Positions 8,704 through 53,411 of a DNA stretch of 64,000 nt are shown here, piece by piece. The position numbers and the translations under genes are program-made. The stretch comes from Deltaproteobacteria bacterium (GTDB lineage: Bacteria; Desulfobacterota; Syntrophia; Syntrophales; UBA8958), in assembly GCA_029561465.1 (NCBI GenBank), contig JAKQIZ010000078.1:6638-70637 (forward strand), written 5' to 3'. The notes below the pieces were generated by a model. It searched no databases. It was not told the DNA's origin and saw only the letters and a program-made list of their open reading frames with translations. Numbering within the stretch: position 1 is the first letter of the stretch; every line of letters starts with the position of its first letter.

Positions 8704-8825
8704 TCCATAACCTCATGCCTCTTGCCGTTTTTTATCGGTTGGGACCTTTACAGAATCTCCGACAAGAAGGAATAATGCAAAGATTCACAGCACTAATTGC
8801 TTCCCCGTCAGAAACGATGACGGTA

Positions 8826-9806
8826 TCAGAGGATACTCCGAACGGCCTGGATGATGTCCGTGCTGTTACGGTAATAGGCATTCTCCAGGGCGGTGCTGGC
8901 GGGGGCCGGACAATCGGGCAGGGTGACCCGTGCCACGGGTGCCCGCAGGGCCCCGAAGGCCCTCTCCGCCGCGAGGGCGGAAATTTCCGCCGCCACGCCA
9001 AAGGACCGCCAGCCGCCGTCGGCAACGACGAGCCGGCCGGTTTTCTTTACCGAGGCCAGCAGGGTTTCTCCATCCAGGGGCTTTATCGTCCGGAGATCGA
9101 TTATTTCCGCCGCGATCCCGGCCTCGGCCAACAGTTCCGATGCCTGGAGGGCCTCCTGAACCATAAACGACGAAGCCGCCACGGTTACATCCGTCCCCTC
9201 CCGGACAATTCTGGCCCGGCCGATCTCCACGGTATAGATCTCTTCCGGCACCGGTTCCTCAAGCCGATACAGCCAGCGGTCGTCGATGAAGACCACCGGA
9301 TTCGACTCCCGGATCGCCGCCACCATCAATCCCTTGGCGTCATAGGGGGTGGCGGGCATGACCACCTTCAACCCCGGCGCCTGGGCGAACATGCCGTGCA
9401 GGGCCTGGGAGTGCTGGGCCGCCTGTTCGCCGCCCCGGTTGAGAATCCCCCAGAAGACAACGGGTACGGGCAGGCTGCCGCCGCTCATGTAATACCAGTT
9501 CGCCGCTTCGTTGATGATGGGATCGAAGGCATAAAACATGAAATCCATACGGGGATGGACGACGACGGGCCGCATCCCCGCCAGGGCCGCCCCGACCGCG
9601 GCGCCGGTCATGGCGTTTTCGGATACCGGGGTGTCGATGACCCGTTCGTCGCCGAAGCGCTCCCGCAAGCCCTGAGCGGTGTTGCCCACATACCAGGGGC
9701 TTTTCACCCCCTGGCCGATGAGAAATACCGCGGGGTCCGCCGCCATCGTCTGATGGAGGGCTTCATTTATCGCCAGGCTGTAACTCAGGATTCTATGCGA
9801 AGACAT
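8826..9806 (-). CDS. TPP-dependent 2-oxoacid dehydrogenase E1 component, beta subunit (transketolase-like)
   Basis: LIGQGV, DTPVSENAMTGAAVGAALAGMRPVV and a transketolase C-terminal-like tail. ATG 9806 (MSSHRILSY) is chosen and overlaps the E1-alpha stop by 14 nt. Confidence 0.85.
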   Translation of the reverse strand: MSSHRILSYSLAINEALHQTMAADPAVFLIGQGVKSPWYVGNTAQGLRERFGDERVIDTPVSENAMTGAAVGAALAGMRPVVVHPRMDFMFYAFDPIINEAANWYYMSGGSLPVPVVFWGILNRGGEQAAQHSQALHGMFAQAPGLKVVMPATPYDAKGLMVAAIRESNPVVFIDDRWLYRLEEPVPEEIYTVEIGRARIVREGTDVTVAASSFMVQEALQASELLAEAGIAAEIIDLRTIKPLDGETLLASVKKTGRLVVADGGWRSFGVAAEISALAAERAFGALRAPVARVTLPDCPAPASTALENAYYRNSTDIIQAVRSIL

Positions 9807-10770
9807 ATCTTTCCAGCTCCTCTGTCTTGGGATGGGCGCCGGCTCTGGCAAAAGCGAACGCCTCTTCTACCTCCGCTTCAACTTCCGCCCTTATTCCGTC
9901 CAATTCCCCGGAAGAAAAAAGCCCCCCCGCCAGAAGATAATCGCGCAGCAGTATCAGCGGATCCTTTTTCATCCAGATGTCTATTTCCTCCGGGGGACGG
10001 ATATCGGTATGCTCCCCCTGGATATTGTCATCCGGGCCGACATGGCCTCGATAACGATAGGTCAAAAACTCCAGAAACACGGGACCTGCGCCACGACGGC
10101 ACTTTTCCGCCGCCGCGGTTGCCGCGTCGTAAACGGCCAGCACGTCGTTGCCTTCCACCTGCCGGCTTTCGATACCGAAGGGTGCCGCGATTTCAAAGAT
10201 ATCCCGATCCACTCGACATTCCCGGACCGGCATGTGGGTGGCATAGTAATTGTTTTCACAAACGAAAAGGATCGGCAGCTTCTTCAGGGCAGCAAAGTTC
10301 ATGCTTTCGTAAAGCACCCCCTCCCCCGTGGCCCCGTCACCGAAAAACGTCACGGCCACACGGCCGTCCCTCCTGATGACCGACGCCAGGGCCGCTCCCA
10401 GGGCCAGGGAGATCGTCCCCGCAACGATCGGCGCCGCCCCCAGCATGCCCACTTCCGGGGCGATGAGGTGCATGGATCCCCCGCGTCCCCGGGAACATCC
10501 CTCCTCCCGGCAGAAGATCTCCGCCGCCATCTTCTCCATGGAACCGCCCTTGGCCAGATAATGCCCGTGGGAGCGGTGGTTCCCGAAGACATAATCCCCA
10601 TCGGTCAGGGCCGCGCAGACACCCACGGCGACCCCTTCCTCTCCGCTGTACAGATGGCAGGGGCAGCGAATTTCGCCGCTGAGGATCGGCGCCACAAAGG
10701 TCTCCTCACAGAGGCGAATCCGCAGCATCCGACGGTAAAAATCTTTCAAGAGTTCACGCGAATATTTCAC
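9793..10770 (-). CDS. TPP-dependent 2-oxoacid dehydrogenase E1 component, alpha subunit
   Basis: TPP-binding motif GDGATGEGVLYESMNFAALKKLPILFVCENN. GTG start at 10770, preceded by GGAGG. Confidence 0.85.
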   Translation of the reverse strand: MKYSRELLKDFYRRMLRIRLCEETFVAPILSGEIRCPCHLYSGEEGVAVGVCAALTDGDYVFGNHRSHGHYLAKGGSMEKMAAEIFCREEGCSRGRGGSMHLIAPEVGMLGAAPIVAGTISLALGAALASVIRRDGRVAVTFFGDGATGEGVLYESMNFAALKKLPILFVCENNYYATHMPVRECRVDRDIFEIAAPFGIESRQVEGNDVLAVYDAATAAAEKCRRGAGPVFLEFLTYRYRGHVGPDDNIQGEHTDIRPPEEIDIWMKKDPLILLRDYLLAGGLFSSGELDGIRAEVEAEVEEAFAFARAGAHPKTEELERYVFA

Positions 10771-12243: not shown

Positions 12244-13400
12244 ATTGCCCCGACATTATTTAGGATCGTTTTCACCACCCGGCGGTCATCAAACTCCCGC
12301 TCGATTTTTATCCGGGAATATTCCCCCATCCTCTCCCTTTTTCGATCATCATGGAATATCCGTAAAATAGCTTCCTTCAGCGCGCGCGTGTCCCGGGGGG
12401 GGATGAGATAGCCGTTGCGGCCGTGTTCCACCGGTCCCCGGCATTGGGGCAGATCGGTAGTGATTACCGGCTTGCCAAAGGCCATGGGTTCAAGGAGGGC
12501 CCGGGGATACCCCCCTTCGTTGTAGTAAGAGGGAAGCACGGCAAGATCGCTGAGGGCATAGATATTCTTGACGTCTTTCCGGAATCCCAGCCAGAAGAAA
12601 TTGTCAATTTTACCTTTTTCCTGAACAAACGCTGCCGGCACCTCGTCGGGATGCCCCCGCTCTTCCGGGGCAATCAAAACGAATTTGATGTCCGGTCGTT
12701 CGTCCACCAATGATGCCGCGGTTTCGATAAACTCCCGGATACCCTTCGACCAGATCAACCGGCCCACCATGACCACAAGCTTTTCATCCCCCCGCAGGGA
12801 CAGCTCCTGTCTGAGTCTGTCCAGTTCATCCCCGTCAATACAGTTTTGTGAATACTCGACAATATCGAGGGCATTGGTTGTCTTTACGACCTTTTCGTCT
12901 CCCACCAGCCCGGTCTTCAAGAAGAAATCCATATCCCCCTGATTGGTGAACCAGACGATGTCACTCATCCGGCAGGCCAAACGATACAGGCTTTTAACAA
13001 TTCCCTGCAGCAGGTGGCCCTTGAGGTCAGACTGCGGCAGGAAAGGTCCCCCCAGTCCCCTCACGGCACAGACGATCTTCTCCACCCCTGCCAGTCGGGC
13101 GGCAATCGCCCCCAAGACATTCGGCTTGGTGGTAAAATTTATCAAGACATCAAATTTCTCCCGGCGGCAAATATTATATACCGACCGGAAACAGTCCAAA
13201 TCCGACCAAGGATCGACATATCTGTTCAATCGCACGGGGTAGTGCCTGATGGCAAGCTTATCGAGCTGGTCGATGTAATTCATCAATACCGGACTGATCG
13301 TATATGCTTCGATATGATCCATGCCCGCGATGAACTTCAGGAAACTCTTGGCAAAAATTACGGTGGAAAGGTCGTCAGGACAAAAGAAGGCGATTTTCAT
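12240..13400 (-). CDS. glycosyltransferase family 4 (GT-B)
   Basis: C-terminal EGGYPRALLEPMAFGKPVITTD (EX7E-type motif). 386 aa. Confidence 0.8.
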   Translation of the reverse strand: MKIAFFCPDDLSTVIFAKSFLKFIAGMDHIEAYTISPVLMNYIDQLDKLAIRHYPVRLNRYVDPWSDLDCFRSVYNICRREKFDVLINFTTKPNVLGAIAARLAGVEKIVCAVRGLGGPFLPQSDLKGHLLQGIVKSLYRLACRMSDIVWFTNQGDMDFFLKTGLVGDEKVVKTTNALDIVEYSQNCIDGDELDRLRQELSLRGDEKLVVMVGRLIWSKGIREFIETAASLVDERPDIKFVLIAPEERGHPDEVPAAFVQEKGKIDNFFWLGFRKDVKNIYALSDLAVLPSYYNEGGYPRALLEPMAFGKPVITTDLPQCRGPVEHGRNGYLIPPRDTRALKEAILRIFHDDRKRERMGEYSRIKIEREFDDRRVVKTILNNVGAI

Positions 13401-15291
13401 TCATGTTTCCCCACATGGCCAGCATAAACAATATCCATACCCGCTTTGACCACCGGTCGGGATCAAGGGGCAATTTTTCGTCTAAAAGATCGTTTACATA
13501 CCGCCGGTCGAACAGATCCAGGACAATACCGTCTCTGGTAAGGCAGGCATCGTAAACCATATCCCGCAGATCTTCCCGCAGCCATTTGATCAGGGGGATT
13601 TCAAAGCCCCGCTTCGGGGCCAGGGAAATCTCCGCGGGCAAATACCTCTTTGCCAGCGATCTCAGGACCGGTTTGGTGCGGAGGTCGGCCAGCAGGATGT
13701 CCCTGGGCAGGCTGAATGCCCATTCGATCAGGCGGTGATCCAGGAAAGGATTTCGACCTTCCAGGCCGTGAGCCATCGTGGCGATATCCATCTTGACCAG
13801 CATGTCGTCATGCATGTTCAGAAAGAAATCCCAGGCCATGAACTGATCGAAGGGGGCGTCGGATGCATGATCGGCCGCTTTTGCCGCCAGCACCTGGGGG
13901 GAAGATTCCCGGATAAGGGGGCGGCACCGATAGAGGTCCCCTTTCTCCCGCTCATCGAAGCCATCCACGCACCAGGCAATGTAACGATCGTAAGGAGTTT
14001 TCCCCAAACCCCGCAGATAACGGTGGGCGAAGGCATATGCGGTGCGAAAATCCCCGGGCGGAGGGAGAATGCGGTTGGCCAAGGCAAAGATTGCCTCCGG
14101 AATCAACCGGAAGAGCGCACCGAATTGATCGTAAAACTTCATGGCCAGATGGCGGCGGTACCCGCAAAAGAGCTCATCTCCCCCTTCTCCGTTGATGACC
14201 ACCTTGACGTATTTTCTCGCCTCGGCGGCGATGCACAACGACGGCACGGCCGAGGCATCGGCAAATGGTTCATCATAAGCCTGGATCAGTTGCGGTAAGA
14301 GTTCCCGGATATCAGGTTTGATGGTGAGAACGTGATGTTCCGTTCCGTATTGTCTTGCCACCAGCGCCGCTCCCGGTCCCTCGTCGAACAGGCCGTCCTC
14401 GATGGCTACCGTGAAGGTCTGTAATTTCCTGTCCATTTGCAGGGCGGCGACGGCCGTCAGCAACCCGCTGTCCACGCCTCCCGAGAGGAAACATCCCACG
14501 GGCACGTCGGCCCGCAACCTGATCCTCACCGCCTCCTTCAGCAGCACCTCGGCCTCGTCGACGGCAGCGGCGAAAGAGATCCGTTCCCGTCTGTTTGATC
14601 GGGACAGGACCCAGTATGGCCGGGAGGCGGCGGACAAATCGCTGTTGAATACCACATAATGGCCGGCGGGAATTTCTTCTATACCCCGGTACACCGTTCC
14701 CGGCGCCGGCACATAACCGAACGTCAGATAATGATATATGGCTTCCGGGGCCACGGATAAATCGACGTTCTCAAGGACCTTGAAGGCCTTGATCTCCGAT
14801 GCAAAATACAAGGTCCGAGAGGCAATCATATAGTACAGGGGCTTTTTCCCCGCCCGGTCCCGGACCAGAGTCAGGCGGCGTTCACGGTCATCCCAAAGGG
14901 CAAAGGCAAACATTCCCGCCACTCGCGCCAGGGCCGCCTCCGTTCCCCAGTGGCTCAACGCCGCCAGCAGCACCTCCGTATCGGAATGGCCATGAAAGGC
15001 AAATCCCTCTTTACGGAGCTCATCTCGCAGCTCCAGGTAGTTGTATATCTCCCCGTTAAATACTATGACAAAACGTCCGCACGAAGAAACCATGGGCTGA
15101 TGCCCATCCCTGGTCAGATCGATGATGGACAGCCGGCGGTGTCCCAACGCCAGGGCGCCGGCGGCATCGGTCCAGCATCCCTCGTCGTCCGGTCCGCGAT
15201 GCTTGAGCGCCGCCGCCATTTTCCGCGCCGTGACCGCCAACGATTCCTTACTTTGAGAAAATGCTGAAAATATGCCGGCAATACCGCACAT
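13375..15291 (-). CDS. asparagine synthase (glutamine-hydrolysing)-family amidotransferase, copy 1
   Basis: MCGIAG N-terminal nucleophile Cys. PP-loop FLSGGVDS. 638 aa. Confidence 0.9.
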   Translation of the reverse strand: MCGIAGIFSAFSQSKESLAVTARKMAAALKHRGPDDEGCWTDAAGALALGHRRLSIIDLTRDGHQPMVSSCGRFVIVFNGEIYNYLELRDELRKEGFAFHGHSDTEVLLAALSHWGTEAALARVAGMFAFALWDDRERRLTLVRDRAGKKPLYYMIASRTLYFASEIKAFKVLENVDLSVAPEAIYHYLTFGYVPAPGTVYRGIEEIPAGHYVVFNSDLSAASRPYWVLSRSNRRERISFAAAVDEAEVLLKEAVRIRLRADVPVGCFLSGGVDSGLLTAVAALQMDRKLQTFTVAIEDGLFDEGPGAALVARQYGTEHHVLTIKPDIRELLPQLIQAYDEPFADASAVPSLCIAAEARKYVKVVINGEGGDELFCGYRRHLAMKFYDQFGALFRLIPEAIFALANRILPPPGDFRTAYAFAHRYLRGLGKTPYDRYIAWCVDGFDEREKGDLYRCRPLIRESSPQVLAAKAADHASDAPFDQFMAWDFFLNMHDDMLVKMDIATMAHGLEGRNPFLDHRLIEWAFSLPRDILLADLRTKPVLRSLAKRYLPAEISLAPKRGFEIPLIKWLREDLRDMVYDACLTRDGIVLDLFDRRYVNDLLDEKLPLDPDRWSKRVWILFMLAMWGNMNENRLLLS

Positions 15292-15305: not shown

Positions 15306-15992
15306 TTAAGAAGGGATCTTTTCGAGCAGCAAGAGGACTTCCGATGACAGCATCGGAACGACCGGCATTATCTTCCTGATGGCCAATCCTTCCCTATGCA
15401 CCTCCCGCCGCAATTCTTCCCTCTTCAGCGGATAGGGCGCAAACCGATGGCATTGGTTGGCAAACCTCACCATCCGGCGCTTGAAACGCTGGGCGGGACT
15501 ATCCAGGCTGTAAGAAAGGATGAGGAATCTTTCGGTGAGGCGGCAAAGCGCCCGGAGCGACTCCGCCCTGATCAGGGGAGGGACACGATGCATGAAACCC
15601 AGCACGACGACGCATCCATAGGCATCGTTTTTGAAGGGCGGACAGGTAATGTCGGCCTGCACGAATCCTCGGCATTGTCCCTTTTTGTAAGCATAAACAG
15701 CGAGCCGCATCATCTCCCGGGATATATCGGCCGCCACGACCCGGAAGGGAAATTCAGCGAGCGTCTCAGCCAAAACACCCGTGCCGCAGGGAATATCGAG
15801 AATGATTTCTTGCGGCCCCAGGTCACATAACCTGAGCAGCGCCGCGACTCCGCGCTTCTCTCTCGCCGTGGCAAAACGGGCCCAAGTAAGTTGATCCGTA
15901 TGTTGCCGCCGGTATTCAGCCGCTTTGTAACGATCCCGGTAAGCCCGGCGCGTCTGCCGTTCATAATCGCTTTCCGGCACCGAGCCCTTCAA
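15306..15992 (-). CDS. class I SAM-dependent methyltransferase
   Basis: Motif I ILDIPCGTGVLAE. The start codon is TTG (15992) or GTG (15980). There is no nearby in-frame ATG. Confidence 0.75.
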   Translation of the reverse strand: MKGSVPESDYERQTRRAYRDRYKAAEYRRQHTDQLTWARFATAREKRGVAALLRLCDLGPQEIILDIPCGTGVLAETLAEFPFRVVAADISREMMRLAVYAYKKGQCRGFVQADITCPPFKNDAYGCVVVLGFMHRVPPLIRAESLRALCRLTERFLILSYSLDSPAQRFKRRMVRFANQCHRFAPYPLKREELRREVHREGLAIRKIMPVVPMLSSEVLLLLEKIPS

Positions 15993-17052
15993 CCTCCCTG
16001 CGCAATTGTTCCTTATAGAATGGATCGATGTACGTCTTTCGCAAAATCATCTTGATCAGACCGGGCCACGTTTTCAAATCCAGGGCGACATTCGCCAAAT
16101 ACCAGTGTTTAAGAAGCTCCTTGATGATTAGAAGCCCAAGAAGCCTGCTTTGGTGAGGAATCTCATCCCCATAGTAACCGTCAAGAAACCTCTTTTCGTA
16201 CTGATATCCCGGACTGAGACGCAGAAACAGCAAAGGGGTTCCCCAGAAGATGATCCGACAGGTCACAATGAATCGCGCCAGATCCGCCTCGGGAAAATCC
16301 ACCTTGCTTTTCCCGGGGTCAAGGATAAAACATCTGCCGTTGCCATCGGCAAGGATATTTCTGATATCCAACCCTTTGAGGGTTAAAGCGGCTCCGGCAC
16401 CTCCGGTGGGAGCTCCCATCGCTTTCAGGACGCGGTCCAATTGATCCAGAAATTTCCTTTCCCGACCGCGGGACTGGAGTCGGCACAAATATTTATCGAT
16501 CTTGTGAAAAGTCTCGTACGGCACCGTCGCCATTCTCTTTTCCGAGGCGCGATGGTAAAAACGAACCGTTTTCCCCAAGCGATCGAGGCAATCATCCATA
16601 AAATCCGCTTGACCTCGGGGATCGATCCGCTTGCGCAATGCGCAACGACGGAAAGATGCCAATATGGGCCTCCCGGCGACCCTTTCCGTTACAATGGCAT
16701 TATCGTCCGCCAGATAGGCAACCGGTTTGACAAAGGCCACCGCCAGGCTGTCGGGTAGATCGAGCTTCGCTAACGACGAAAGGCTGTCGTATTCATTTTT
16801 CCCGAGGGCCCTGTCCGCTTGAGACAAGGGGCAAATATTCCTTGCTTCCTTTTTATGCAGATCCATTTTGGGTATCTTGACGTAGTATCCTCTTCCCCTC
16901 TCGTCACCCCTTTTTTCCAGCCAGAAGCAGACGGAAAAATCATTGATTTCCAACGGCCCGACGCATATTCCGTTGTCGGGATCCGTATTCGGCCAGATCC
17001 GCCGGGCCACTCGCCTTGACAGCGAGGAACGGACTTCCGCATTGGTGAGCAT
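15961..17052 (-). CDS. hypothetical protein, possibly protein-kinase-like/LPS-kinase-like fold
   Basis: GRGYYVKIPK (Gly-rich loop plus Lys), LDIRNIL (catalytic-loop-like but with atypical D-N spacing), ILDPG (DFG-like). Coding is likely; the function is weakly supported. Confidence 0.5.
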   Translation of the reverse strand: MLTNAEVRSSLSRRVARRIWPNTDPDNGICVGPLEINDFSVCFWLEKRGDERGRGYYVKIPKMDLHKKEARNICPLSQADRALGKNEYDSLSSLAKLDLPDSLAVAFVKPVAYLADDNAIVTERVAGRPILASFRRCALRKRIDPRGQADFMDDCLDRLGKTVRFYHRASEKRMATVPYETFHKIDKYLCRLQSRGRERKFLDQLDRVLKAMGAPTGGAGAALTLKGLDIRNILADGNGRCFILDPGKSKVDFPEADLARFIVTCRIIFWGTPLLFLRLSPGYQYEKRFLDGYYGDEIPHQSRLLGLLIIKELLKHWYLANVALDLKTWPGLIKMILRKTYIDPFYKEQLRREVEGLGAGKRL

Positions 17053-17134
17053 AGCCCGTCTATCGCTTTAACCGACCGGACCGGCAAATTCGTGTCTGCA
17101 TCTCATGTACCGATCACGCCGAAGGATGAAATGA

Positions 17135-17677
17135 TCAGGAAGAGAACTCCTGCCACTTTTCATTGACAAAACCGTACAACGCCGCCGTCGACTGTTCGAT
17201 AGTCTCGATGCGGGAATCGATTGTCAGGTCGGGAGAATCCGGCGGCTCGTAAATATTGGAGGGAGAAAAACCGATGAGGTTGTTCAGCTTGTTTTCCCGG
17301 GCCAGTTTGTATAGCCCCTTGACGTCGCGCCGCATGACGGTGTCAAGATCGGCGGCGAAGAATATCTCATAAAAACGGTCGCCCAGAAGAGAACGGGCAT
17401 GCGCCCGAGATGATTGGTAAGGGGAGATGATGGGAACCAGGATGATATCGTAACCGCCGCTCGCTTCCAGACAAAGATCCGCGATCAGCCGGTTGTTTTC
17501 GATTATATCCGCCACTGAGAATCCGAGCTGGATGTGCAGCCGGTTCCGGACATCATCGCCGTCCAGGATGAGCACCGTCCTGCCGGCTGCCTCCAAACGG
17601 CTTTTGACGGCGGTGGCGACGGTGGTCTTTCCCGAACCGGAAAGGCCGGTGAACCAAAACACGAGCGCCGTTTTCAT
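17135..17677 (-). CDS. cysC: adenylyl-sulfate (APS) kinase
   Basis: P-loop FTGLSGSGKTT, LDGDDVR, 180 aa. ATG 17677 forms an ATGA overlap with the upstream stop. The longer ORF start at 17854 is rejected. Confidence 0.9.
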   Translation of the reverse strand: MKTALVFWFTGLSGSGKTTVATAVKSRLEAAGRTVLILDGDDVRNRLHIQLGFSVADIIENNRLIADLCLEASGGYDIILVPIISPYQSSRAHARSLLGDRFYEIFFAADLDTVMRRDVKGLYKLARENKLNNLIGFSPSNIYEPPDSPDLTIDSRIETIEQSTAALYGFVNEKWQEFSS

Positions 17678-19941
17678 GCCACGAACACTTCCTTCCCCTC
17701 CCGCGCCTCCCGGATGATGAGCTCCGAAATCTCCTTGCGCATGAACCACTCCGGAGGGCGCTTTCCCCTGGCAAGCATTTTTCGGCCGGCCGTACCGCTG
17801 ATGTTGAGTAGATGGTCGTCGCCATGCCGGCATTGTTCCACATATTCGTGGCATGCCTCACAGTAATGCTGGGTAGGGAAAAACAGCGGCACGATCCCGA
17901 GATCACCGACGCGTTCGAAAAGTCGCTCCACGTCCCCGGGTTGGTAATAGTCCCCCACCCCGGTATGATCCCTGCCGACAATGAAATGACTGCAACCAAA
18001 ATTCTTTCGACACAGGGCCGTAAAAACAGCCTCGCGGGGGCCGGCGTAGCGGGAATAATTCTGAAACGCCCCGATCATGACCTTTCCGGGCGGATAGTAT
18101 TTTTGGATCATGAGCTCATAGCCTCTGATGATGACGTCGAAGTTGTAATCCCCCTTTTTCTTGGGACCGGCGACGGGGTGGGCGAAGAGGCCGTCGCAAT
18201 GGGTCCGCTCCAGGGCCAGCCTTTGGATATGCTCGTGGGCGCAATGGATTACGTTACGGGTATGGAAGCCGACCACCTTGCTCCAACCCCGGTGCGCGAA
18301 GATCGTCCGTACCTGCCGGGGCGTGAGTTCGTAATGTTTGTATGGGGAAGGCAATCTCCGGACCAGTTGCACCGGTCCCCCTAAGAACCATTCGCCCCGT
18401 TGGTACAAAAGCGCCACCCCGGGGTGATTGCGGTCCGTGACCCCAAAGGTATCCCTGGCCGTCTGTTCCAGGTCCGGTTTGAAGATCTGTTGGATGTCCA
18501 TGGTGGCATAGATTTCCTTGGTGCCTTTGAGCCGCAGGGCGACCTTATCCCCGGCACGAAGCTTCCCGGCCATTTTCCCGGGTACCTGCAATACTATTGG
18601 TAAAGGCCATATCACCCCGCTGGGAAGGCGATATTCCCTCAATACCGTCTCCATTTCCTCCTTGGTCATAAATCCCGTCAAGGGGGAAAAGGTGCCCAGG
18701 GCAATTTGCTCGGCGCTCATCAGGACCGATACATCGACATCCAGCGGGATTAATCCGGCCATTTCTTCCGGCGCCGGGTTTTCCTGCCAGGCATTCACCA
18801 GTCTGCCGCCGTGCGGTTCGATCAGCAGCAAGGAGCCCTTGCCGTCTAGATCCGGAAGGAAGGTATTGTTCAGGTGCTCATCATACTGTTGGATCATCTT
18901 GCGGACCATCATGGCACAATGCACCGGATAGGACCCGATGGCCGTTTCCGCGGCCAGAACCAAGCCATCCGCCCCGTCGCACAGGGTATTGAAAATGTCG
19001 TTTACTTCGGCCCGGGTGGGGTTTGATGATTTGACCATGGACTCCAAGAGGTTGGTGGCCACGTAAACCTTAACCCCCACCTTTTTTGCCCTGCTGATAA
19101 TCAGTTTTTGCATCCGCGGGATCATGTCGATGGGCACCTGCCGGGACAGATCGCCCCGATCTATGAGGAGGGCATCCGATTTTTCAGCAATCTCTTTCAG
19201 GTTACGAAAGCCTGCCGTCGATTCGATTTTCGAGATGACACGGGTGTCCTCACCCACATGGCGGCGAATCACATCCACATCCGCACCGCGATTGGCGAAC
19301 GACAGCGCCGCGTGCCTGAGGCCGTATCGCTGTCCTATCTCCAGGGCCTGCCGGTCCTTCTCCGTCAGAACCGGCAACAGGACGTCGCGATTCAGGATCG
19401 TGACGGCCTTGTTCGGACCGACCCGGCCGCCGATCAGTATCTTCAGCCGGAGGCCCGGAGCGGAATTCTCGACGATCTGGGCCAGAACGGAGTTGAAATC
19501 GATGCTGACCAGGTCTCCCTCCACAAAGAAGGAGGCTATATCGGGAGGATAGAAGCTGAGCTGCGGGGCATCGCTTCTTCCCCCGCCGCCGGGGATCAAG
19601 AGCATCTCGTTCTCCGGCAGGTGCAGGGTCTCCCCCGCCATGTCGCCGGTCCTTATCTGCGCCCCTTCGGTATCCAGGCAGATGGGCAAAGATGTCCGCT
19701 CCTGAATGAAACCGATGATTCCCGGTAAATCATCAATCTTGGTGTGGGACAGGTTGATCCGCAGCAGATCCACACCGAGTTCGGCAAGCCGCGCCAGGGT
19801 GTAATCATTCAGGGAAGCCGGTCCCAAGGTGCAGAGAATCTCTTTTTTGTCTTTATGGTCTTTATGGTCTTTATGGTCTTTCTTCAAATCTTCCTTCCTT
19901 TCAAAGGTCAGACGGCCTCGTGACGCCCACTGCCCCGACAA
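17674..19941 (-). CDS. fusion protein: pyruvate-kinase-like barrel domain (aa ~34-352) plus ATP sulfurylase / sulfate adenylyltransferase (aa ~371-755)
   Basis: PK motifs ILCTLGPAS, LRINLSH, ISKIES, LIDRGDL, NPTRAEVND, VLAAETA. Sulfurylase motifs LIEPHGG, HTRNVIHCAHE, HPVAGPKKKGD, GRDHTGVG. The start is TTG 19941. An alternative TTG at 19887 is preceded by AGGAAGGAAG. Confidence 0.85.
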   Translation of the reverse strand: MSGQWASRGRLTFERKEDLKKDHKDHKDHKDKKEILCTLGPASLNDYTLARLAELGVDLLRINLSHTKIDDLPGIIGFIQERTSLPICLDTEGAQIRTGDMAGETLHLPENEMLLIPGGGGRSDAPQLSFYPPDIASFFVEGDLVSIDFNSVLAQIVENSAPGLRLKILIGGRVGPNKAVTILNRDVLLPVLTEKDRQALEIGQRYGLRHAALSFANRGADVDVIRRHVGEDTRVISKIESTAGFRNLKEIAEKSDALLIDRGDLSRQVPIDMIPRMQKLIISRAKKVGVKVYVATNLLESMVKSSNPTRAEVNDIFNTLCDGADGLVLAAETAIGSYPVHCAMMVRKMIQQYDEHLNNTFLPDLDGKGSLLLIEPHGGRLVNAWQENPAPEEMAGLIPLDVDVSVLMSAEQIALGTFSPLTGFMTKEEMETVLREYRLPSGVIWPLPIVLQVPGKMAGKLRAGDKVALRLKGTKEIYATMDIQQIFKPDLEQTARDTFGVTDRNHPGVALLYQRGEWFLGGPVQLVRRLPSPYKHYELTPRQVRTIFAHRGWSKVVGFHTRNVIHCAHEHIQRLALERTHCDGLFAHPVAGPKKKGDYNFDVIIRGYELMIQKYYPPGKVMIGAFQNYSRYAGPREAVFTALCRKNFGCSHFIVGRDHTGVGDYYQPGDVERLFERVGDLGIVPLFFPTQHYCEACHEYVEQCRHGDDHLLNISGTAGRKMLARGKRPPEWFMRKEISELIIREAREGKEVFVA
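19851..19877 (-). repeat. 3 x 9-bp perfect tandem repeat (CTTTATGGT) encoding (KDH)3 in the N-terminal tail of the fusion protein
   Basis: Read directly from the sequence. The protein track shows KDHKDHKDHKDKK. Confidence 0.95.
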
Positions 19942-19993
19942 GTATGCCCCCGGCGGGACGGCCGCGATTACGAAACCGATCGGCGCGCGGCCC

Positions 19994-20809
19994 CTAATTG
20001 TCCCGGCGCTTCACCTCAACTACATAATAGTCTTCGCAGCGACCGTAGGTTTGGTAGGTCTGCCGCATAAAAAGGATCAATAACAGGAGATAGAATACGA
20101 GATAGCCACAGAGGGCGATCTCGAGCCATCCCAAGACGGCCGCCAAAAGAAAAATGAGGGCCTGAAGTCCGCCGGTGGTTTCCAGATTCCGCACCAGGAG
20201 GTTGACGAGTTCCTTGATCGACATCCTTTGGTTACGGTCCTTCTCGTCCCACTGGGAAAAGGAGTCTCCGAATCTGATAAACAGCACCCGGTTCACCAGC
20301 CGCATGAGGAGCGAAATAACGGCGATGCCGGCGCCGGCGGCGAGGGAAAGGACCGCCGGAACGGAAACGGCAATTCCCATCGAGCCGAGGAATGCATCGA
20401 GGCTCCCTTCCGGCCAGAGGAAGACTCCCATGCCGAGCGCGAAAGGCAGAAAGGCGATGAGAACGACGCCGGCGGCATAGTCGAGGAAACCGCCAAAGTT
20501 GTCCCGCTTGCGCAGCGCCCTCGCCATGCTGCCATCCGTCACATCGACGGCCTCCCAAAACAGGACCATGACCAAGGCGGCAACCGCTCCCCCGGGACCA
20601 CCGAATGCTGCGGTAAAAACGATAACCCAGGAAAACAAAAAAGAGGCGAAGGTCACCTGCCGGGGCGTCAATCCCAGTTTCAGCGCCAGCCACGCCAGAT
20701 ACACCCCCGCGGGACGTACCATCATCATCAGTATATAACCGCGGAGGGCCGCACCGGAACCGACATTCCGCTTTCTGATCAGCTCGAGACCGATGTTGTC
20801 AGTTGACAT
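19994..20809 (-). CDS. integral membrane protein, CDP-alcohol phosphatidyltransferase-like
   Basis: Multiple hydrophobic segments. Motif DVTDGSMAR-x8-G-x3-D at aa 89-110 matches D-x2-DG-x2-AR-x8-G-x3-D. The final conserved Asp position is Gly. Confidence 0.65.
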   Translation of the reverse strand: MSTDNIGLELIRKRNVGSGAALRGYILMMMVRPAGVYLAWLALKLGLTPRQVTFASFLFSWVIVFTAAFGGPGGAVAALVMVLFWEAVDVTDGSMARALRKRDNFGGFLDYAAGVVLIAFLPFALGMGVFLWPEGSLDAFLGSMGIAVSVPAVLSLAAGAGIAVISLLMRLVNRVLFIRFGDSFSQWDEKDRNQRMSIKELVNLLVRNLETTGGLQALIFLLAAVLGWLEIALCGYLVFYLLLLILFMRQTYQTYGRCEDYYVVEVKRRDN

Positions 20810-22736
20810 ACCACTTCTCCGCCCACATTTGAAAATTCATCATCATCCAGATCTTTTCCGCGCGGCCGCCGTGATGCCGATAGAACCCGCTCACTTCCCG
20901 TTGCACCTTTTTCTCGTCCAGGATCCCCACCTTCCTGATTTTTTCCGGAGACAGATATTCCCTCACGAACGGTTCCCAGACCCCGCGCAGCCAATAATAC
21001 AGGGGGATCATAAAACCACGCTTCGGAGCGGAGATAATGTCTTCGCCGACCCACTTCCGGAGAATCTTCTTCAAGATGCGCTTATGCTCCCCATCGCCGT
21101 ACAGATAAGCCACCGGCAGGCTGAAGGCAAACTCGGCAATCCGATGGTCCAGAAACGGGTCCCGGCATTCCAGGGAGACGGCCATGGACGCCCGGTCCAC
21201 CTTGACCAGAATGTCGTCCCGCAGAAAGGCCTGATAATCCGTGCGCATCATGGCGTCCACAGTTTCCGCGCGGTAACTGTGGAGATAGTCTCGATCCAGA
21301 ACCGTATCCGCGAAAAGATCGCCCGACGCCCCGGGGAGAAAGCCGGGGAGCGATGCTTCGGACCAGGCCTTTTCATTCATGAGTCGCAACAGGTCCCCCT
21401 CGCTGCGGACTTTCAGCAGGCGCAGCATTTTTTCGTAGCGGGCCGCATGCTGGGGGAAAAAAGACTCCGCCCGGGATATGGCGCCCGGCAGCGATAAGAG
21501 CAAGCGATACGGCAACCCGTGCGCCAGGGTTTGGGAAACAATCCGGCGCAAGGCGAGAGGCCATCTTCCCAGCCACCGGTAACGGTCGGCATAAGCCCGG
21601 TAGTCTTCATAACCGCAGAACTGCTCGTCGCCGCCGTCCGCCGACAGGGCGACCTTGACGTGCCTTCGGGCCAGCCGGCAGAGAATGTAGGTGGGAATCC
21701 CCGAGGTATCCCCGTATGGTTCATCGTAAATATCGCAGAATCTATCCAGCGAGTCCTGCACTTCCTGCTCAGAGACATAATGGACGATCTGTTTTAGATC
21801 CAGCGCTTCCGAAACCTTTCTGGCCTTGGCCGCTTCGTCATAGGCTTTCTCCTGAAAACCGATGGTTATATTGAGGATATCGGCATTTGCCTTTTTCCGG
21901 AGGATAGCTGAAACCAGAGAAGAATCGATCCCCCCGGAAAGGAACATGCCGACGGGCACGTCGGAGACCAGGCGATAGCGGAAGGCATCCAGAAGCAGCG
22001 ACTCCAGTTGTTCCGCCGCTGCGGAGAAACTGCCCTGATAGGAGTCCCGGACTATGTCGGCAAGACGCCAGTAGGCCTTCATCGTCATCCGGCCAAAACG
22101 GTCTATGACCAGATAATGGCCGGGCAGAAGTTTGTACACATCTTTGAAGATACTGCGGGGGGCGAGGATGTATCCGTTGATGAAATGCTGGCCCAAGGCC
22201 GTCCGGTCCAGTTCCTTTACCAGGGTGGGATGGGCGCATAAGGACTTCAACTCCGACCCGAACAGCAGGCGGCTGCTGTCGCAAGAGTAATAGAGGGGCT
22301 TGATGCCCGCCCGGTCGCGGCACAGGATCAGTTCCCGCTCGCTTTCGTTCCACAAGGCAAAGGCGAACATGCCGATAAAACGCTTCAAGGCTCTGTCCAT
22401 ACCCCAGCACTGGATGGCATGGATAACGACTTCCGTATCGGAGGCCCCGCTGAACCGGCAGCCTTGCTTAATCAGCTCCCCTCTGATTTCCCGGTAATTG
22501 TAAACCTCGCCGTTGAAGACGATGCAGAAGCGCCGGTCCGCGGACCACAGCGGCTGATTGCCCCCGGGCGACAGATCGATTATCGCCAGCCGGGTATGCC
22601 CCAAACCAATCTCACCCTGGCAATAAATCCCCCGGGCATCGGGACCGCGGTGCTGCAAGCTGTCGACCATCGCCTCAACATGCGCCTGCTCCACCGTTGC
22701 GCCGGTAAAACTGTATTCGCCGCAAATGCCGCACAT
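20799..22736 (-). CDS. asparagine synthase (glutamine-hydrolysing)-family amidotransferase, copy 2
   Basis: MCGICGE N-terminal Cys. PP-loop FLSGGIDS. 645 aa. Confidence 0.9.
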   Translation of the reverse strand: MCGICGEYSFTGATVEQAHVEAMVDSLQHRGPDARGIYCQGEIGLGHTRLAIIDLSPGGNQPLWSADRRFCIVFNGEVYNYREIRGELIKQGCRFSGASDTEVVIHAIQCWGMDRALKRFIGMFAFALWNESERELILCRDRAGIKPLYYSCDSSRLLFGSELKSLCAHPTLVKELDRTALGQHFINGYILAPRSIFKDVYKLLPGHYLVIDRFGRMTMKAYWRLADIVRDSYQGSFSAAAEQLESLLLDAFRYRLVSDVPVGMFLSGGIDSSLVSAILRKKANADILNITIGFQEKAYDEAAKARKVSEALDLKQIVHYVSEQEVQDSLDRFCDIYDEPYGDTSGIPTYILCRLARRHVKVALSADGGDEQFCGYEDYRAYADRYRWLGRWPLALRRIVSQTLAHGLPYRLLLSLPGAISRAESFFPQHAARYEKMLRLLKVRSEGDLLRLMNEKAWSEASLPGFLPGASGDLFADTVLDRDYLHSYRAETVDAMMRTDYQAFLRDDILVKVDRASMAVSLECRDPFLDHRIAEFAFSLPVAYLYGDGEHKRILKKILRKWVGEDIISAPKRGFMIPLYYWLRGVWEPFVREYLSPEKIRKVGILDEKKVQREVSGFYRHHGGRAEKIWMMMNFQMWAEKWYVN

Positions 22737-32853: not shown

Positions 32854-33602
32854 TCGCCTCCGGCGACGGTAATGATCTCGCCCGTGATGAAATCCGCGTC
32901 ATCGGACATAAGATATTCAAAAGCGGCGGCGATTTCATTGGTCTTGCCCGCCCGTCCCAGGGGGATTTTGGCGATTCGTTCCTCCTGCTCCTCCTCGGTG
33001 CGACCCGTCCGCTGCTGGGGAGTCATGACAAAACCCGCCCGCACCCCGTTGATGCGGACGCCGGTCCTCGCTACTTCTCGCGCCAGACCGCGCATGGCAA
33101 TCTCCAAGGCCCCCTTGGCGGCGGCATAATGAATGGATCGGGAAGAACCGGCATACTTAGGGGCAATGGAACTCAAATAGACGATCCTGCCGAAGCCGGC
33201 GGCGATCATAGACGGGAGGGCGTGTGTCGCCAGGGTGTAAGCGGCCAGGCAATGTTGTCGGAAGATGGTTTCCCAATCCGCCCACTCCAGATCACGCCAC
33301 CCCTTCCAGCCTACGTCGCCGTGGCAGATGGCCAGGAGGTCCAGGGAGCCAAGCGCTTGGCGACATTCCGCCACCAGCCCGGAACAGGCCTTTTCGCTCC
33401 CCAGGTCGGCCTGAAAAATATGGCCCCGGTTGGCATCGATCCCCAGGTCCCGGCAGAGGCTCGCGACGGAACCGGGATTTTTAAAGCAATGCAATCCCAT
33501 GGTCGTTTCTTTCCGGGCCAGACGGCGGACCACCGCGGACCCGATGGCGCCGGAAGCGCCCACAACGAGACATGACCTTTGCCGCCCGTGCTCATTCTCC
33601 AT
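32850..33602 (-). CDS. short-chain dehydrogenase/reductase (SDR)
   Basis: CLVVGASGAIGSAV (TGxxxGxG-like) and YAAAKGA (YxxxK). 250 aa. Confidence 0.8.
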   Translation of the reverse strand: MENEHGRQRSCLVVGASGAIGSAVVRRLARKETTMGLHCFKNPGSVASLCRDLGIDANRGHIFQADLGSEKACSGLVAECRQALGSLDLLAICHGDVGWKGWRDLEWADWETIFRQHCLAAYTLATHALPSMIAAGFGRIVYLSSIAPKYAGSSRSIHYAAAKGALEIAMRGLAREVARTGVRINGVRAGFVMTPQQRTGRTEEEQEERIAKIPLGRAGKTNEIAAAFEYLMSDDADFITGEIITVAGGD

Positions 33603-48238: not shown

Positions 48239-48254
48239 TTTCCTATCTACCCCC

Positions 48255-53218: not shown

Positions 53219-53411
53219 TGCCGGAAGGCTTTGCGTAACCGGGGTCCTTGCCTGACGCCGCCCCCAGGGACCGAACGATGGTGGAGATGCCGGTTTCCCC
53301 GCGCAAAAGGCAGGGAAAGACCCGGACATGACGCGAGACCTTTGCAAAACTCTGTTCCCGCCTCCATATTGTCATTCCTGCAAAAGCGGTAATCCAGTAT
53401 TATCAAGGAGT

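What the first reader, a model, noticed from the sequence alone, without database searches (positions are those of the whole stretch)
15961..20809. PAPS-type activation module with no recognisable sulfotransferase; possible alternative 3'-phospho-nucleotide donor chemistry
The sulfurylase fusion and cysC sit between a CDP-alcohol-phosphatidyltransferase-like membrane protein (19994..20809) and a kinase-like protein (15961..17052). Methyltransferases and AsnB amidotransferases flank them. I found no PKxGTT/RDP-type sulfotransferase motifs in any ORF of the window.

In the Campylobacter O-methyl-phosphoramidate pathway, a CysC homologue phosphorylates a non-sulfate nucleotide (cytidine diphosphoramidate). 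That pathway also uses glutamine-dependent enzymes, methyltransferases and ~600-aa transferases. The gene mix here is reminiscent of that logic: a CysC homologue, glutamine amidotransferases, methyltransferases and three ~600-aa orphan proteins.

So either an unrecognised sulfotransferase family is present, or the donor made is not simply PAPS.
Basis: inference. Interest (0 to 1): 0.65.

Follow-up and report, generated by a model that had tools for sequence, protein, structure and literature searches.

The report
PEP-driven PAPS module, candidate membrane sulfotransferase
This stretch of a Syntrophales surface-sugar gene cluster encodes an ordinary-in-purpose but unusually built factory for activated sulfate (PAPS), and the sulfotransferase that seems to be missing may be the neighbouring membrane protein, which would be a new kind of sulfate-transferring enzyme.

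Summary
Between a CDP-alcohol-phosphotransferase-like membrane protein and a kinase-fold protein lie an ATP sulfurylase fusion and cysC. No ORF in any frame of the 64 kb matches a known sulfotransferase family.

The Campylobacter-phosphoramidate-like interpretation is not supported. The fusion is pyruvate kinase barrel + PUA + ATP sulfurylase, translationally coupled to an APS kinase. This module is widespread and uncharacterised. In 6 of 6 other lineages sampled it sits beside a Sulfotransfer_1, _2 or _3 protein inside glycan clusters, so it most likely makes PAPS for glycan sulfation. The kinase domain probably regenerates ATP from PEP.

In the window's lineage the sulfotransferase slot is held by the 271-aa membrane protein. 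It has the CDP-alcohol phosphotransferase fold, but the fourth motif Asp is always Gly. Relatives of this protein sit next to ATPS, APSK, PK and once CysQ in several different gene orders, and never next to a canonical sulfotransferase. I propose it is the sulfotransferase; this is inference only.

The 363-aa protein is a choline-kinase/APH-fold kinase. With its methyltransferase it forms an independent cassette.

Two things remain unexplained. The module's enzymes are substituted at conserved sulfate-contact residues. Some membrane-protein homologues pair with PK alone.

The parts
17674..19941 (-). Tri-domain protein (755 aa as called; homologues are about 726 aa, so the true start may lie about 25 codons downstream). 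Domains: pyruvate kinase A/B barrel without the C-domain, a PUA-like domain, and ATP sulfurylase.
   Evidence: Pfam PK 8e-62, PUA_2 6e-40, ATP-sulfurylase 3e-76. NCBIfam NF003166 scores 412.6 (cut-off 387) and TIGR00339 scores 340.8 (cut-off 322.95). Nearest structures are ATPS 8a8d (E 2e-95) and bacterial pyruvate kinases. The PK catalytic motifs are retained. The ATPS RNP loop reads HTRN instead of QTRN and the GRD loop reads GRDHTG.
17135..17677 (-). APS kinase (cysC, 180 aa), translationally coupled to the fusion gene through an ATGA overlap.
   Evidence: PF01583 9e-41. TIGR00455 apsK scores 151.8 against a cut-off of 138.7. PDB APS kinases match at E 1e-29. The overlap is read directly. 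The Arg equivalent to M. tuberculosis CysC Arg497 is Ile here.
19994..20809 (-). 271-aa integral membrane protein of CDP-alcohol phosphotransferase fold, lacking the fourth motif Asp. It is the candidate non-canonical sulfotransferase. Its start overlaps the stop of the upstream AsnB gene.
   Evidence: PF01066 at 25.9 bits. AF2 model with pLDDT 80 and pTM 0.80. Foldseek top hits are AF2299, PIP synthases and IPCT-DIPPS. The motif D89xxD92GxxAR97-x8-G106xxxD110xxxG114 is invariant in the family.
15961..17052 (-). 363-aa small-molecule kinase of the APH/choline-kinase (protein-kinase-like) fold. It is not part of the sulfate module.
   Evidence: No Pfam or NCBIfam hit. AF2 model with pLDDT 89. 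Foldseek top hits are PsiK, LicA choline kinase, APHs and NahK. K59, E87, D229 and D245 are invariant. Homologues pair with a 220-aa methyltransferase in clusters without ATPS/APSK. Syntenic loci L005/L006 have the sulfate module without it.
15306..15992 (-). 228-aa class I SAM methyltransferase, the conserved partner of the 363-aa kinase.
   Evidence: Methyltransf_25/23/11 hits. Orthologues are adjacent to the kinase in L001 and L002.
20799..22736 (-). AsnB-type glutamine amidotransferase, a frequent neighbour of the membrane protein in glycan clusters.
   Evidence: Asn_synthase 7e-87 plus GATase_7. It resembles TIGR03108, the XrtA/PEP-CTERM system amidotransferase, but scores below the cut-off. 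An AsnB-type gene lies within about 250 bp of the membrane-protein gene in most glycan-context loci.
13375..15291 (-). Second AsnB-type amidotransferase, part of the conserved cluster backbone.
   Evidence: Asn_synthase 3e-86. It is present at the same position in L005, L006 and L013-16.

Best explanation
What is shown:
- 17135-19941 encodes a two-gene sulfate-activation unit.
- The first gene is a single polypeptide. It joins a catalytically intact pyruvate kinase barrel (no regulatory C-domain), a PUA-like domain and an ATP sulfurylase.
- The second gene is an APS kinase whose start codon overlaps the first gene's stop.
- This architecture is common in uncultured Omnitrophota, Desulfobacterota/Syntrophales and Nitrospinota.
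- Elsewhere it sits beside canonical sulfotransferases inside surface-glycan clusters, often nonulosonic-acid clusters.

What I infer about the unit:
- It makes PAPS for sulfation of the glycan built by the surrounding genes.
- The kinase domain converts PEP + ADP into ATP on the spot. ADP is the APS kinase product. The thermodynamically uphill sulfate activation is thereby paid for by PEP.

What I infer about the sulfotransferase (the least certain step):
- In this lineage the sulfotransferase is the adjacent 271-aa membrane protein.
- It has the CDP-alcohol phosphotransferase fold and keeps the three metal-binding Asp residues and the Arg of the signature motif. It has Gly where those enzymes have their presumed catalytic-base Asp.
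- PAPS (or APS) is a structural analogue of a CDP-alcohol: a nucleoside 5'-phosphate joined to a tetrahedral sulfate instead of a phosphate.
- A hydroxyl of the undecaprenyl-linked glycan at the cytoplasmic membrane face would attack the sulfur, and PAP (or AMP) would leave.

The 363-aa kinase and its methyltransferase form a separate, mobile decoration cassette.
For: The module is a real sulfate activator:
- The ATPS and APSK pass curated equivalog cut-offs and match solved ATPS and APSK structures.
- The PK catalytic residues are all present.

The module is widespread:
- All 120 clusters listed share the PK+PUA+ATPS architecture at 52-75% identity. One is also fused to an APS kinase.

The module serves sulfotransferases:
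- L003: Sulfotransfer_3, 32.7 bits against a cut-off of 27.
- L004: Sulfotransfer_1.
- L032: Sulfotransfer_3, plus an Inositol_P/CysQ-like gene.
- L033: Sulfotransfer_1.
- L034: a homologue of the L003 and L032 proteins.
- L035: Sulfotransfer_2, 28.2 bits against a cut-off of 22.
- That is 6 of 6 non-Syntrophales loci, and three different sulfotransferase families.

The membrane protein takes the sulfotransferase slot:
- The window and syntenic loci L005, L006, L013-18 read AsnB, membrane protein, PK-ATPS, APSK. They carry no canonical sulfotransferase.
- L007/L020 carry a 52%-identical homologue in the order GT4, APSK, canonical unfused ATPS, full PK, CysQ-like, membrane protein, GT4. There is no sulfotransferase on that 14 kb contig.
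- Other orders occur: ATPS then membrane protein (L029); APSK then membrane protein (L031); APSK, ATPS, PK, membrane protein (L026); and ATPS, PK, four genes, membrane protein (L009).
- Of 19 family clusters at 80% identity, 8 have ATPS and/or APSK nearby and 13 have ATPS, APSK or PK nearby.

Interchangeability:
- Three combinations are seen: canonical module + membrane protein (L007), variant module + membrane protein (window), and variant module + canonical sulfotransferase (6 loci).
- This argues that the two module types are interchangeable, and so are the two acceptor-side enzymes.

Other support:
- No cytidylyltransferase is conserved near the membrane protein.
- The fold is confirmed.
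- The fourth Asp is the presumed base in canonical enzymes (PMC6506517). It is Gly or Ala in nearly all of the roughly 100 closest representatives.
- Non-canonical, sulfatase-fold glycan sulfotransferases were recently demonstrated in Halobacterium, so unrecognised families do exist (PMC11980604).
Against: - There is no biochemical evidence of any kind. The membrane-protein assignment rests on gene neighbourhood and chemical analogy.
- Five family clusters have only a full-length PK directly upstream. In L011 and L012 the other neighbours are unrelated housekeeping genes, and in L008 no ATPS or APSK lies within its 8.4-kb contig. PK, not ATPS or APSK, is therefore the tightest partner, and a simple sulfotransferase model does not explain that.
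- L010, L024 and the P0210 contig carry the membrane protein in glycan clusters with no PAPS genes within 10 kb.
- AsnB is an equally frequent neighbour.
- Fused-type ATPS has His for the sulfate-binding Gln and Thr/Ser for the Ala of the GRD loop. Its APSK has Ile for the sulfate- and adenine-binding Arg (contacts per PMC3779200 and PMC4373884). The anion handled could therefore differ from sulfate.
- A canonical sulfotransferase could lie outside the 64 kb. I could not read further along the source contig.
- The sample of PK-ATPS contexts is small: 6 non-Syntrophales loci plus the Syntrophales lineage.
Confidence: 0.45

Rival explanations
1. This is an ordinary glycan sulfation set. The PK-ATPS/APSK pair makes PAPS, and a canonical sulfotransferase encoded outside the window uses it. 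The 271-aa membrane protein is an ordinary CDP-alcohol phosphotransferase that adds a phospho-alcohol (for example phosphoglycerol, phosphoethanolamine or phosphocholine) to the glycan. In the window that alcohol might be fed by the choline-kinase-fold 363-aa kinase and one of the cytidylyltransferases further along.
For: - The protein hits PF01066 and has the family fold.
- The window has a choline-kinase-like kinase 3 kb away.
- The window has more CTP_transf_3 genes (three, at 34578-35342, 42075-42839 and 56110-56829) than NeuB genes (two).
- Some homologues occur in glycan clusters without PAPS genes.
- Bacterial sulfotransferases are often unlinked to their PAPS genes (general knowledge).
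Against: - The kinase cassette and the membrane protein occur independently of each other.
- No cytidylyltransferase is conserved near the membrane protein in L005, L006, L007 or the P0210 contig.
- The presumed catalytic-base Asp is invariably missing.
- Every other PK-ATPS locus sampled keeps its sulfotransferase within 0-3 genes. Loci with the membrane protein never show one.
- The order APSK, ATPS, PK, CysQ, membrane protein in L007 is hard to read as coincidence.
Confidence: 0.28
2. The membrane protein works primarily with pyruvate kinase, not with PAPS. For example, it could use ATP or ADP (AMP-phosphate analogues of a CDP-alcohol) or another PK-dependent nucleotide to phosphorylate or pyrophosphorylate a lipid or lipid-linked glycan. 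The PAPS genes would then be recruited next to PK for their own reasons, namely ATP supply.
For: - PK is the most frequent immediate neighbour: in 11 of 19 family clusters it lies within about 150 bp, or about 930 bp in L007 where the CysQ-like gene intervenes.
- These include stand-alone PK + membrane-protein pairs in Gemmatimonadota and other MAGs with unrelated surroundings.
- The PK in those pairs is 59-61% identical to the PK of the L007 sulfate operon.
Against: - L029 (ATPS directly upstream) and L031 (APSK directly upstream) link the membrane protein to sulfate genes without an intervening PK.
- A CysQ-like gene sits between PK and the membrane protein in L007.
- The membrane protein replaces canonical sulfotransferases positionally.
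- No precedent is known to me for a CDP-alcohol phosphotransferase-fold enzyme using ATP or ADP.
Confidence: 0.12
3. The variant ATPS and APSK activate an anion other than sulfate, giving a 3'-phospho-adenosine-5'-phospho-X donor in analogy with the Campylobacter O-methyl-phosphoramidate pathway. The membrane protein or another enzyme then transfers X.
For: - The Gln that contacts sulfate is strictly conserved in ATPS (PMC3779200). It is His in all 116 fusions in which the motif was found.
- The conserved Arg that binds the sulfate of APS (PMC4373884) is Ile in all eight module-linked APS kinases aligned.
- Glutamine amidotransferases and methyltransferases are nearby.
Against: - The same variant enzymes sit next to Sulfotransfer_1/_2/_3 proteins in 6 of 6 other loci.
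- Canonical unfused ATPS and APSK (QTRN, GRDHAG, Arg kept) pair with the same membrane-protein family.
- No homologue of the MeOPN-specific glutamine kinase or gamma-glutamyl hydrolase is present.
- The AsnB genes and methyltransferases are present in related clusters that lack the module.
- His can still hydrogen-bond to sulfate (inference).
Confidence: 0.07

Closest known systems
Bifunctional PAPS synthases and Sat-CysC fusions (for example Aquifex Sat/APS kinase 2gks, human PAPSS1/2) and the NodPQ-type dedicated PAPS supply for glycan sulfation
   Same: ATP sulfurylase and APS kinase are placed together, and dedicated to a sulfated surface or secreted glycan rather than to cysteine synthesis. 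The domains are homologous.
   Different: The fusion partner here is a pyruvate kinase barrel, and the APS kinase is a separate, translationally coupled gene. Energetic coupling would be to PEP rather than to GTP hydrolysis (CysN/NodQ) or PPi removal. [quoted passage not shown] I found no description of this architecture in the searchable literature.
CDP-alcohol phosphotransferases (AF2299, IPCT-DIPPS, PgsA1/PIP synthase, CEPT1)
   Same: The 271-aa protein shares the membrane helical core fold and D1xxD2GxxAR...GxxxD3 of the signature. IPCT-DIPPS offers the logic of a soluble nucleotidyltransferase feeding a membrane transferase with an NMP-linked donor.
   Different: The fourth Asp, the presumed catalytic base (PMC6506517), is Gly. 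No cytidylyltransferase partner is present. The partners are ATPS, APSK, PK and CysQ. The proposed group transferred is sulfuryl, not a phospho-alcohol.
Canonical PAPS-dependent sulfotransferases (PF00685, PF13469, PF03567)
   Same: The proposed reaction and the genomic position next to the PK-ATPS/APSK module are the same.
   Different: There is no sequence or fold relationship. The canonical enzymes are soluble or single-pass P-loop-like alpha/beta proteins with 5'-PSB and 3'-PB motifs, none of which is found in the window.
Campylobacter jejuni O-methyl phosphoramidate pathway (Cj1415-Cj1422)
   Same: A CysC homologue sits in a surface-glycan locus with methyltransferases and large transferases.
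   Different: A real ATP sulfurylase is present, and the Cj1418- and Cj1417-type enzymes are absent. Homologous modules are linked to sulfotransferases and to CysQ.
Halobacterium salinarum Agl30/Agl31 (sulfatase-fold glycan sulfotransferases; PMC11980604)
   Same: They are a precedent for glycan sulfation of lipid-linked or N-linked glycans by enzymes outside the canonical sulfotransferase families. One of them is membrane-associated.
   Different: They have an unrelated fold (alkaline-phosphatase/sulfatase). They were shown experimentally, whereas the present candidate is inferred only.

Membership tests
ATP sulfurylase (Sat; PF01747 / TIGR00339 / NF003166) | PUA-like domain plus catalytic domain scoring above curated family cut-offs | tested here: met
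   NF003166 scores 412.6 against 387. TIGR00339 scores 340.8 against 322.95. PDB 8a8d matches at E 2e-95.
ATP sulfurylase (Sat; PF01747 / TIGR00339 / NF003166) | RNP loop QxRN, whose Gln hydrogen-bonds to sulfate | tested here: not met
   The loop reads HTRN in the window and in all 116 fusions in which the motif was found. The Gln contact and its strict conservation are described in PMC3779200.
ATP sulfurylase (Sat; PF01747 / TIGR00339 / NF003166) | HxxH motif and GRD loop (GRDHAG) | tested here: inconclusive
   HCAH is present. The GRD loop is present as GRDHTG, with Ala replaced by Thr; the canonical contact is through the backbone NH.
APS kinase (CysC; PF01583 / TIGR00455) | P-loop, LDGD motif, first phosphosulfate-binding Arg, stacking Phe, ISP motif, and a score above the cut-off | tested here: met
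   GLSGSGKTT, LDGDDVR, LGF and IISPY are all present. TIGR00455 scores 151.8 against 138.7.
APS kinase (CysC; PF01583 / TIGR00455) | Second conserved Arg binding the sulfate and adenine N1 of APS (M. tuberculosis CysC Arg497) | tested here: not met
   It is Ile in the window and in 7 other module-linked APS kinases. It is kept in L007. The role of this Arg is described in PMC4373884.
Pyruvate kinase (PF00224 / TIGR01064) | A/B-domain barrel with the catalytic Arg, Asn/Ser, Asp/Thr, Lys, Glu, Asp and Thr residues | tested here: met
   RINLSH, LDTEG, SKIES, DRGDL, ATN and PTRAEVND align with solved pyruvate kinases. PF00224 matches at 8e-62.
Pyruvate kinase (PF00224 / TIGR01064) | C-terminal (allosteric/tetramerisation) domain PF02887 | tested here: not met
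   It is absent, and PUA + ATPS follow instead. TIGR01064 scores 255, below its cut-off of 306.
CDP-alcohol phosphotransferase (PF01066) | Membrane helical fold and a family HMM hit | tested here: met
   PF01066 scores 25.9 bits against 22. Foldseek top hits are AF2299, PIP synthase and DIPPS, probability 1.0, TM 0.5-0.57.
CDP-alcohol phosphotransferase (PF01066) | Complete signature D1xxD2GxxAR...GxxxD3xxxD4, with D4 as the presumed catalytic base | tested here: not met
   D1, D2, G, AR, G and D3 are present. D4 is an invariant Gly and is Gly or Ala in nearly all close representatives. The role of D4 is described in PMC6506517.
CDP-alcohol phosphotransferase (PF01066) | Use of a CDP-linked donor, implying a partner cytidylyltransferase | tested here: inconclusive
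   No cytidylyltransferase is conserved near family members. The window does have CTP_transf_3 genes 14 kb or more away. Substrate use cannot be tested with these tools.
Canonical sulfotransferases (PF00685, PF13469, PF03567, PF06990 and relatives) | Any ORF in the window with a family HMM hit, or with 5'-PSB and 3'-PB motifs | tested here: not met
   No hit appeared even at E up to 5 for the orphan proteins. Six-frame tblastn and HMM searches with six module-linked sulfotransferases gave a best E of 0.04. The motif scan was negative.
Campylobacter MeOPN pathway | Glutamine kinase (Cj1418-like), gamma-glutamyl hydrolase (Cj1417-like) and phosphoramidate cytidylyltransferase (Cj1416-like), together with the CysC homologue | tested here: not met
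   No PEP-utiliser/ATP-grasp or GATase-1 protein is in the window. Only the CysC homologue is present. I could not compare directly with the Cj sequences, which are not available in the tools.
APH/choline-kinase-like kinases (for the 363-aa protein) | Bilobal protein-kinase-like fold with the catalytic Lys, Glu, Asp (catalytic loop) and Asp (metal) | tested here: met
   Foldseek top hits are PsiK, LicA, APH(2'') and NahK at E 1e-8 to 1e-6. K59, E87, D229 and D245 are invariant in 25 homologues. The Pfam APH model does not hit.

The most novel reading that the evidence does not exclude
The 271-aa protein founds a new class of sulfotransferase. It would be an integral-membrane enzyme of the CDP-alcohol phosphotransferase fold, lacking the fourth Asp. 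It would use PAPS or APS as a sulfate analogue of a CDP-alcohol to sulfate lipid-linked glycans or lipids at the membrane. It would be fed by a previously undescribed PEP-driven PAPS synthase, the pyruvate kinase-ATP sulfurylase fusion plus APS kinase. A further possibility is that the missing base reflects an anionic acceptor such as a polyprenyl phosphate, which would give a lipid-linked sulfate carrier.
Probability: 0.35. Interest if true: 0.85.

Novelty: new variant of a known kind. Interest (0 to 1): 0.6.

Why it matters
Sulfated surface glycans and extracellular polymers are abundant in anaerobic sludge and sediment communities. One study reports that sialylation and sulfation are common in granular-sludge polymers (PMC10483923; I saw only its title and abstract). 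The responsible genes in uncultured bacteria are largely unannotated.

First, the pyruvate kinase-ATP sulfurylase fusion would be a third way of paying for the unfavourable sulfate-activation step, alongside GTP hydrolysis and PPi removal. It is also a ready-made part for PAPS regeneration in biocatalysis.

Second, if the membrane protein is a sulfotransferase, surveys that look only for PF00685-like domains miss a whole route of glycan or lipid sulfation. The CDP-alcohol phosphotransferase superfamily would also gain a new chemistry.

Both ideas can be tested directly with recombinant proteins.

Tried and rejected
- **363-aa protein as the hidden sulfotransferase: rejected.** It has a kinase fold with intact kinase residues. 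It travels with a methyltransferase independently of the PAPS genes.
- **The proteins of about 600 aa (580, 615 and 690 aa) as sulfotransferases or MeOPN transferases: no support.** They show weak GT-B, LIC13510 and LIC12162 similarities and GT-B-like C-terminal motifs. The 690-aa protein resembles a 715-aa protein next to the module in L004, but that locus has its own Sulfotransfer_1.
- **A 640-aa neighbour in L005/L006 as a shared candidate:** it has no homologue in the window.
- **The cut first ORF of L007 as a hidden sulfotransferase:** it is a GT4.
- **Rosetta-stone fusions of the membrane protein with ATPS, APSK or PK:** none were found among the longer family representatives.
- **ATPS or APSK near the PK + membrane-protein pairs of L008, L011 and L012:** none were found, and the ORFs scanned there by Pfam are unrelated to sulfate or glycan metabolism.
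- **Literature searches** for the PK-ATPS fusion and for any link between CDP-alcohol transferases and sulfation found nothing relevant.
- **PDB sequence search with the 363-aa protein** gave nothing.
- **The + strand ORFs overlapping the region** (for example 8715-10376 and 19108-19728) are shadows of minus-strand genes, judged by GC3 and by the lack of domains.

Full report
**Anatomy**

The window has about 58% GC, and from 3.2 kb to its end it is one long minus-strand glycan locus. The source is a Syntrophales MAG lineage that recurs in many assemblies; cluster members are named 'Syntrophales bacterium'.

In transcription order the finding's region reads as follows.
- AsnB-type amidotransferase (20799-22736).
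- A 271-aa membrane protein (19994-20809), whose start overlaps the AsnB stop.
- A 755-aa protein (17674-19941).
- cysC (17135-17677).
- A 363-aa protein (15961-17052).
- A 228-aa methyltransferase (15306-15992).
- A second AsnB (13375-15291).
- GT4, a methyltransferase, a PglC-like Bac_transf, and a TPP-dependent E1 alpha/beta pair.

The 755-aa protein is pyruvate kinase barrel + PUA_2 + ATP sulfurylase. The cysC start codon overlaps its stop codon as ATGA.

**Is a sulfotransferase really missing?**

Yes, within the 64 kb.
- Pfam scans of about 56 ORFs, including relaxed scans of the orphan proteins, give no sulfotransferase family.
- Six sulfotransferases that accompany homologous modules elsewhere find nothing in the six-frame translation; the best E-value is 0.04.
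- No PAPS-binding motifs occur in a plausible protein.
- The three large orphans look like GT-B-type surface-carbohydrate transferases.

**What the module is**

The ATPS part exceeds NCBI's curated cut-offs for sulfate adenylyltransferase, and cysC exceeds the apsK cut-off. Both align along their length with solved enzymes. The PK part keeps every catalytic motif of the A/B domains but lacks the C-domain.

The tri-domain architecture is common. All 120 clusters listed have it at 52-75% identity. They come from Omnitrophota, 'Deltaproteobacteria' and Nitrospina, and one is additionally fused to an APS kinase. I found no paper describing it.

I sampled seven further contexts.
- The syntenic relative L005 has the same membrane protein upstream.
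- The other six (L003, L004, L032, L033, L034, L035) are glycan or nonulosonic-acid clusters. In each, a Sulfotransfer_1, _2 or _3 protein lies 0-3 genes from the module.
- One of these loci also has a CysQ-like gene.

This is strong circumstantial evidence that the module supplies PAPS to sulfotransferases. The simplest role for an intact PK fused to ATPS and coupled to APSK is local regeneration of ATP from PEP and the ADP released by APSK. That role is inferred.

**The candidate for the missing enzyme**

The 271-aa protein hits PF01066 weakly. Its AlphaFold model (pLDDT 80) matches AF2299, PIP synthases and IPCT-DIPPS. Its family keeps D1xxD2GxxAR-x8-GxxxD3 but has an invariant Gly at D4. 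D4 is the presumed catalytic base of these enzymes (PMC6506517). Gly or Ala at D4 characterises a whole subfamily of proteins 250-270 aa long.

Twenty-four loci encoding relatives were fetched, in addition to L005-L007, and surveyed together with the window. Of 19 clusters at 80% identity:
- 8 have ATPS and/or APSK nearby;
- 13 have ATPS, APSK or PK nearby.

The gene orders differ between lineages.
- Membrane protein, PK-ATPS, APSK: the window, L005 and L013.
- GT4, APSK, ATPS, PK, CysQ-like, membrane protein, GT4: L007.
- APSK, ATPS, PK, membrane protein: L026.
- ATPS, membrane protein: L029.
- APSK, membrane protein: L031.

None of these loci contains a canonical sulfotransferase, and none has a conserved cytidylyltransferase.

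The L007-type ATPS and APSK have fully canonical active-site residues. Three combinations are therefore seen: canonical module + membrane protein, variant module + membrane protein, and variant module + canonical sulfotransferase. That pattern is what non-orthologous displacement of the sulfotransferase would produce.

Chemically, PAPS or APS is a nucleoside-5'-phosphate carrying a tetrahedral sulfate where a CDP-alcohol carries a phosphate. Attack on sulfur with release of the nucleotide mirrors the family's reaction. A membrane enzyme would also suit undecaprenyl-linked acceptors. All of this is inference.

**What does not fit**

First, five family clusters have only a full-length PK directly upstream, abutting or overlapping the membrane-protein gene. 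In L011 and L012 the other neighbours are unrelated housekeeping genes, and in L008 no ATPS or APSK lies within its 8.4-kb contig. L010, L024 and the P0210 contig have no PAPS genes nearby. PK is therefore the tightest partner, for reasons I cannot explain.

Second, the fused-type enzymes carry three substitutions at conserved positions.
- ATPS Gln is replaced by His.
- The GRD-loop Ala is replaced by Thr or Ser.
- The APSK Arg is replaced by Ile.

Structural papers describe these positions as sulfate contacts and as conserved. Because the same variants sit beside canonical sulfotransferases, I read them as a clade peculiarity rather than as a change of anion. This needs an assay.

**The kinase-like protein**

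The 363-aa protein is a confident APH/choline-kinase-fold kinase with intact catalytic residues. Its homologues pair with the small methyltransferase in related clusters that lack ATPS and APSK. L005 and L006 have the sulfate genes without it. It is an independent decoration cassette inserted next to the sulfate cassette.

**Comparison and verdict**

The MeOPN analogy fails on its defining enzymes and on the presence of a true ATP sulfurylase. The module is a new architectural variant of a PAPS synthase, and its purpose, glycan sulfation, is ordinary. The membrane-protein hypothesis would be a new sulfotransferase class if true. I give it about 0.35-0.45.

Noticed in passing
window 15306-17052 (and L001 9340-11065, L002 9132-11077): A two-gene cassette of a 363-aa APH/choline-kinase-fold kinase (an uncharacterised family of about 80 clusters with no Pfam model) plus a methyltransferase of about 220 aa. 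It recurs at the same variable position of related GT4/AsnB/Bac_transf/E1ab glycan clusters. The substrate is unknown; it might phosphorylate and methylate a sugar or an amino alcohol.
   Followed up: partly
window 17674-19941 and 17135-17677; P0081-P0200: All PK-ATPS fusions have HTRN instead of the strictly conserved QTRN, and GRDH[TS]G instead of GRDHAG. Their partner APS kinases have Ile in place of the conserved APS-sulfate-binding Arg. Unfused relatives in L007, L020, L026 and L029 are canonical.
   Followed up: partly
L008 3041-5239, L011 8418-10705, L012 8172-10741: A full-length pyruvate kinase and the D4-less CDP-OH-like membrane protein form a stand-alone, abutting gene pair in Gemmatimonadota and other MAGs, with no sulfate-activation genes nearby. 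In L011 the next gene is an H+-pyrophosphatase.
   Followed up: partly
window 29000-64000: A large nonulosonic-acid region. It has two NeuB genes (47441-48313, 61492-62697), three CTP_transf_3 cytidylyltransferases and one CBS-NTP_transferase. It also has two B12-binding radical SAM enzymes (38729-40195, 53412-54905), two SPASM radical SAM enzymes (33592-34581, 40211-41227) and a HAD-radical SAM fusion (45399-47420). An MptE/Maf-like protein lies at 54908-55984. This suggests heavily modified legionaminic- or pseudaminic-type sugars.
   Followed up: no
window 8826-10770 and the matching end of L001, L002, L005-L007, L010, L015, L016, L020, L024: A TPP-dependent E1 alpha/beta pair (E1_dh + Transket_pyr/Transketolase_C) is conserved next to the PglC-like Bac_transf in most of the related clusters whose fetched flank reaches that end. 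This hints at a two-carbon branched or acylated amino sugar as the first residue.
   Followed up: no
window 19830-19941: The N-terminus of the fusion as called (TTG start) contains a KDHKDHKDHKDKK repeat and is about 25 residues longer than most homologues. The true start is uncertain.
   Followed up: no
L009 2222-3055: In a Rhodospirillaceae MAG a formate/nitrite-transporter-family channel gene sits between the ATPS-PK genes and the glycosyltransferases that lead to the membrane protein. It might be an anion channel linked to the pathway.
   Followed up: no
window 27079-28821, 36854-38701, 51275-53347: Three orphan proteins of 580-690 aa with only weak similarity to Leptospira LIC13510/LIC12162-type surface-carbohydrate transferases. 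The C-terminal half of the 690-aa protein resembles 715- and 725-aa proteins in L004 and L003, near PK-ATPS modules.
   Followed up: partly
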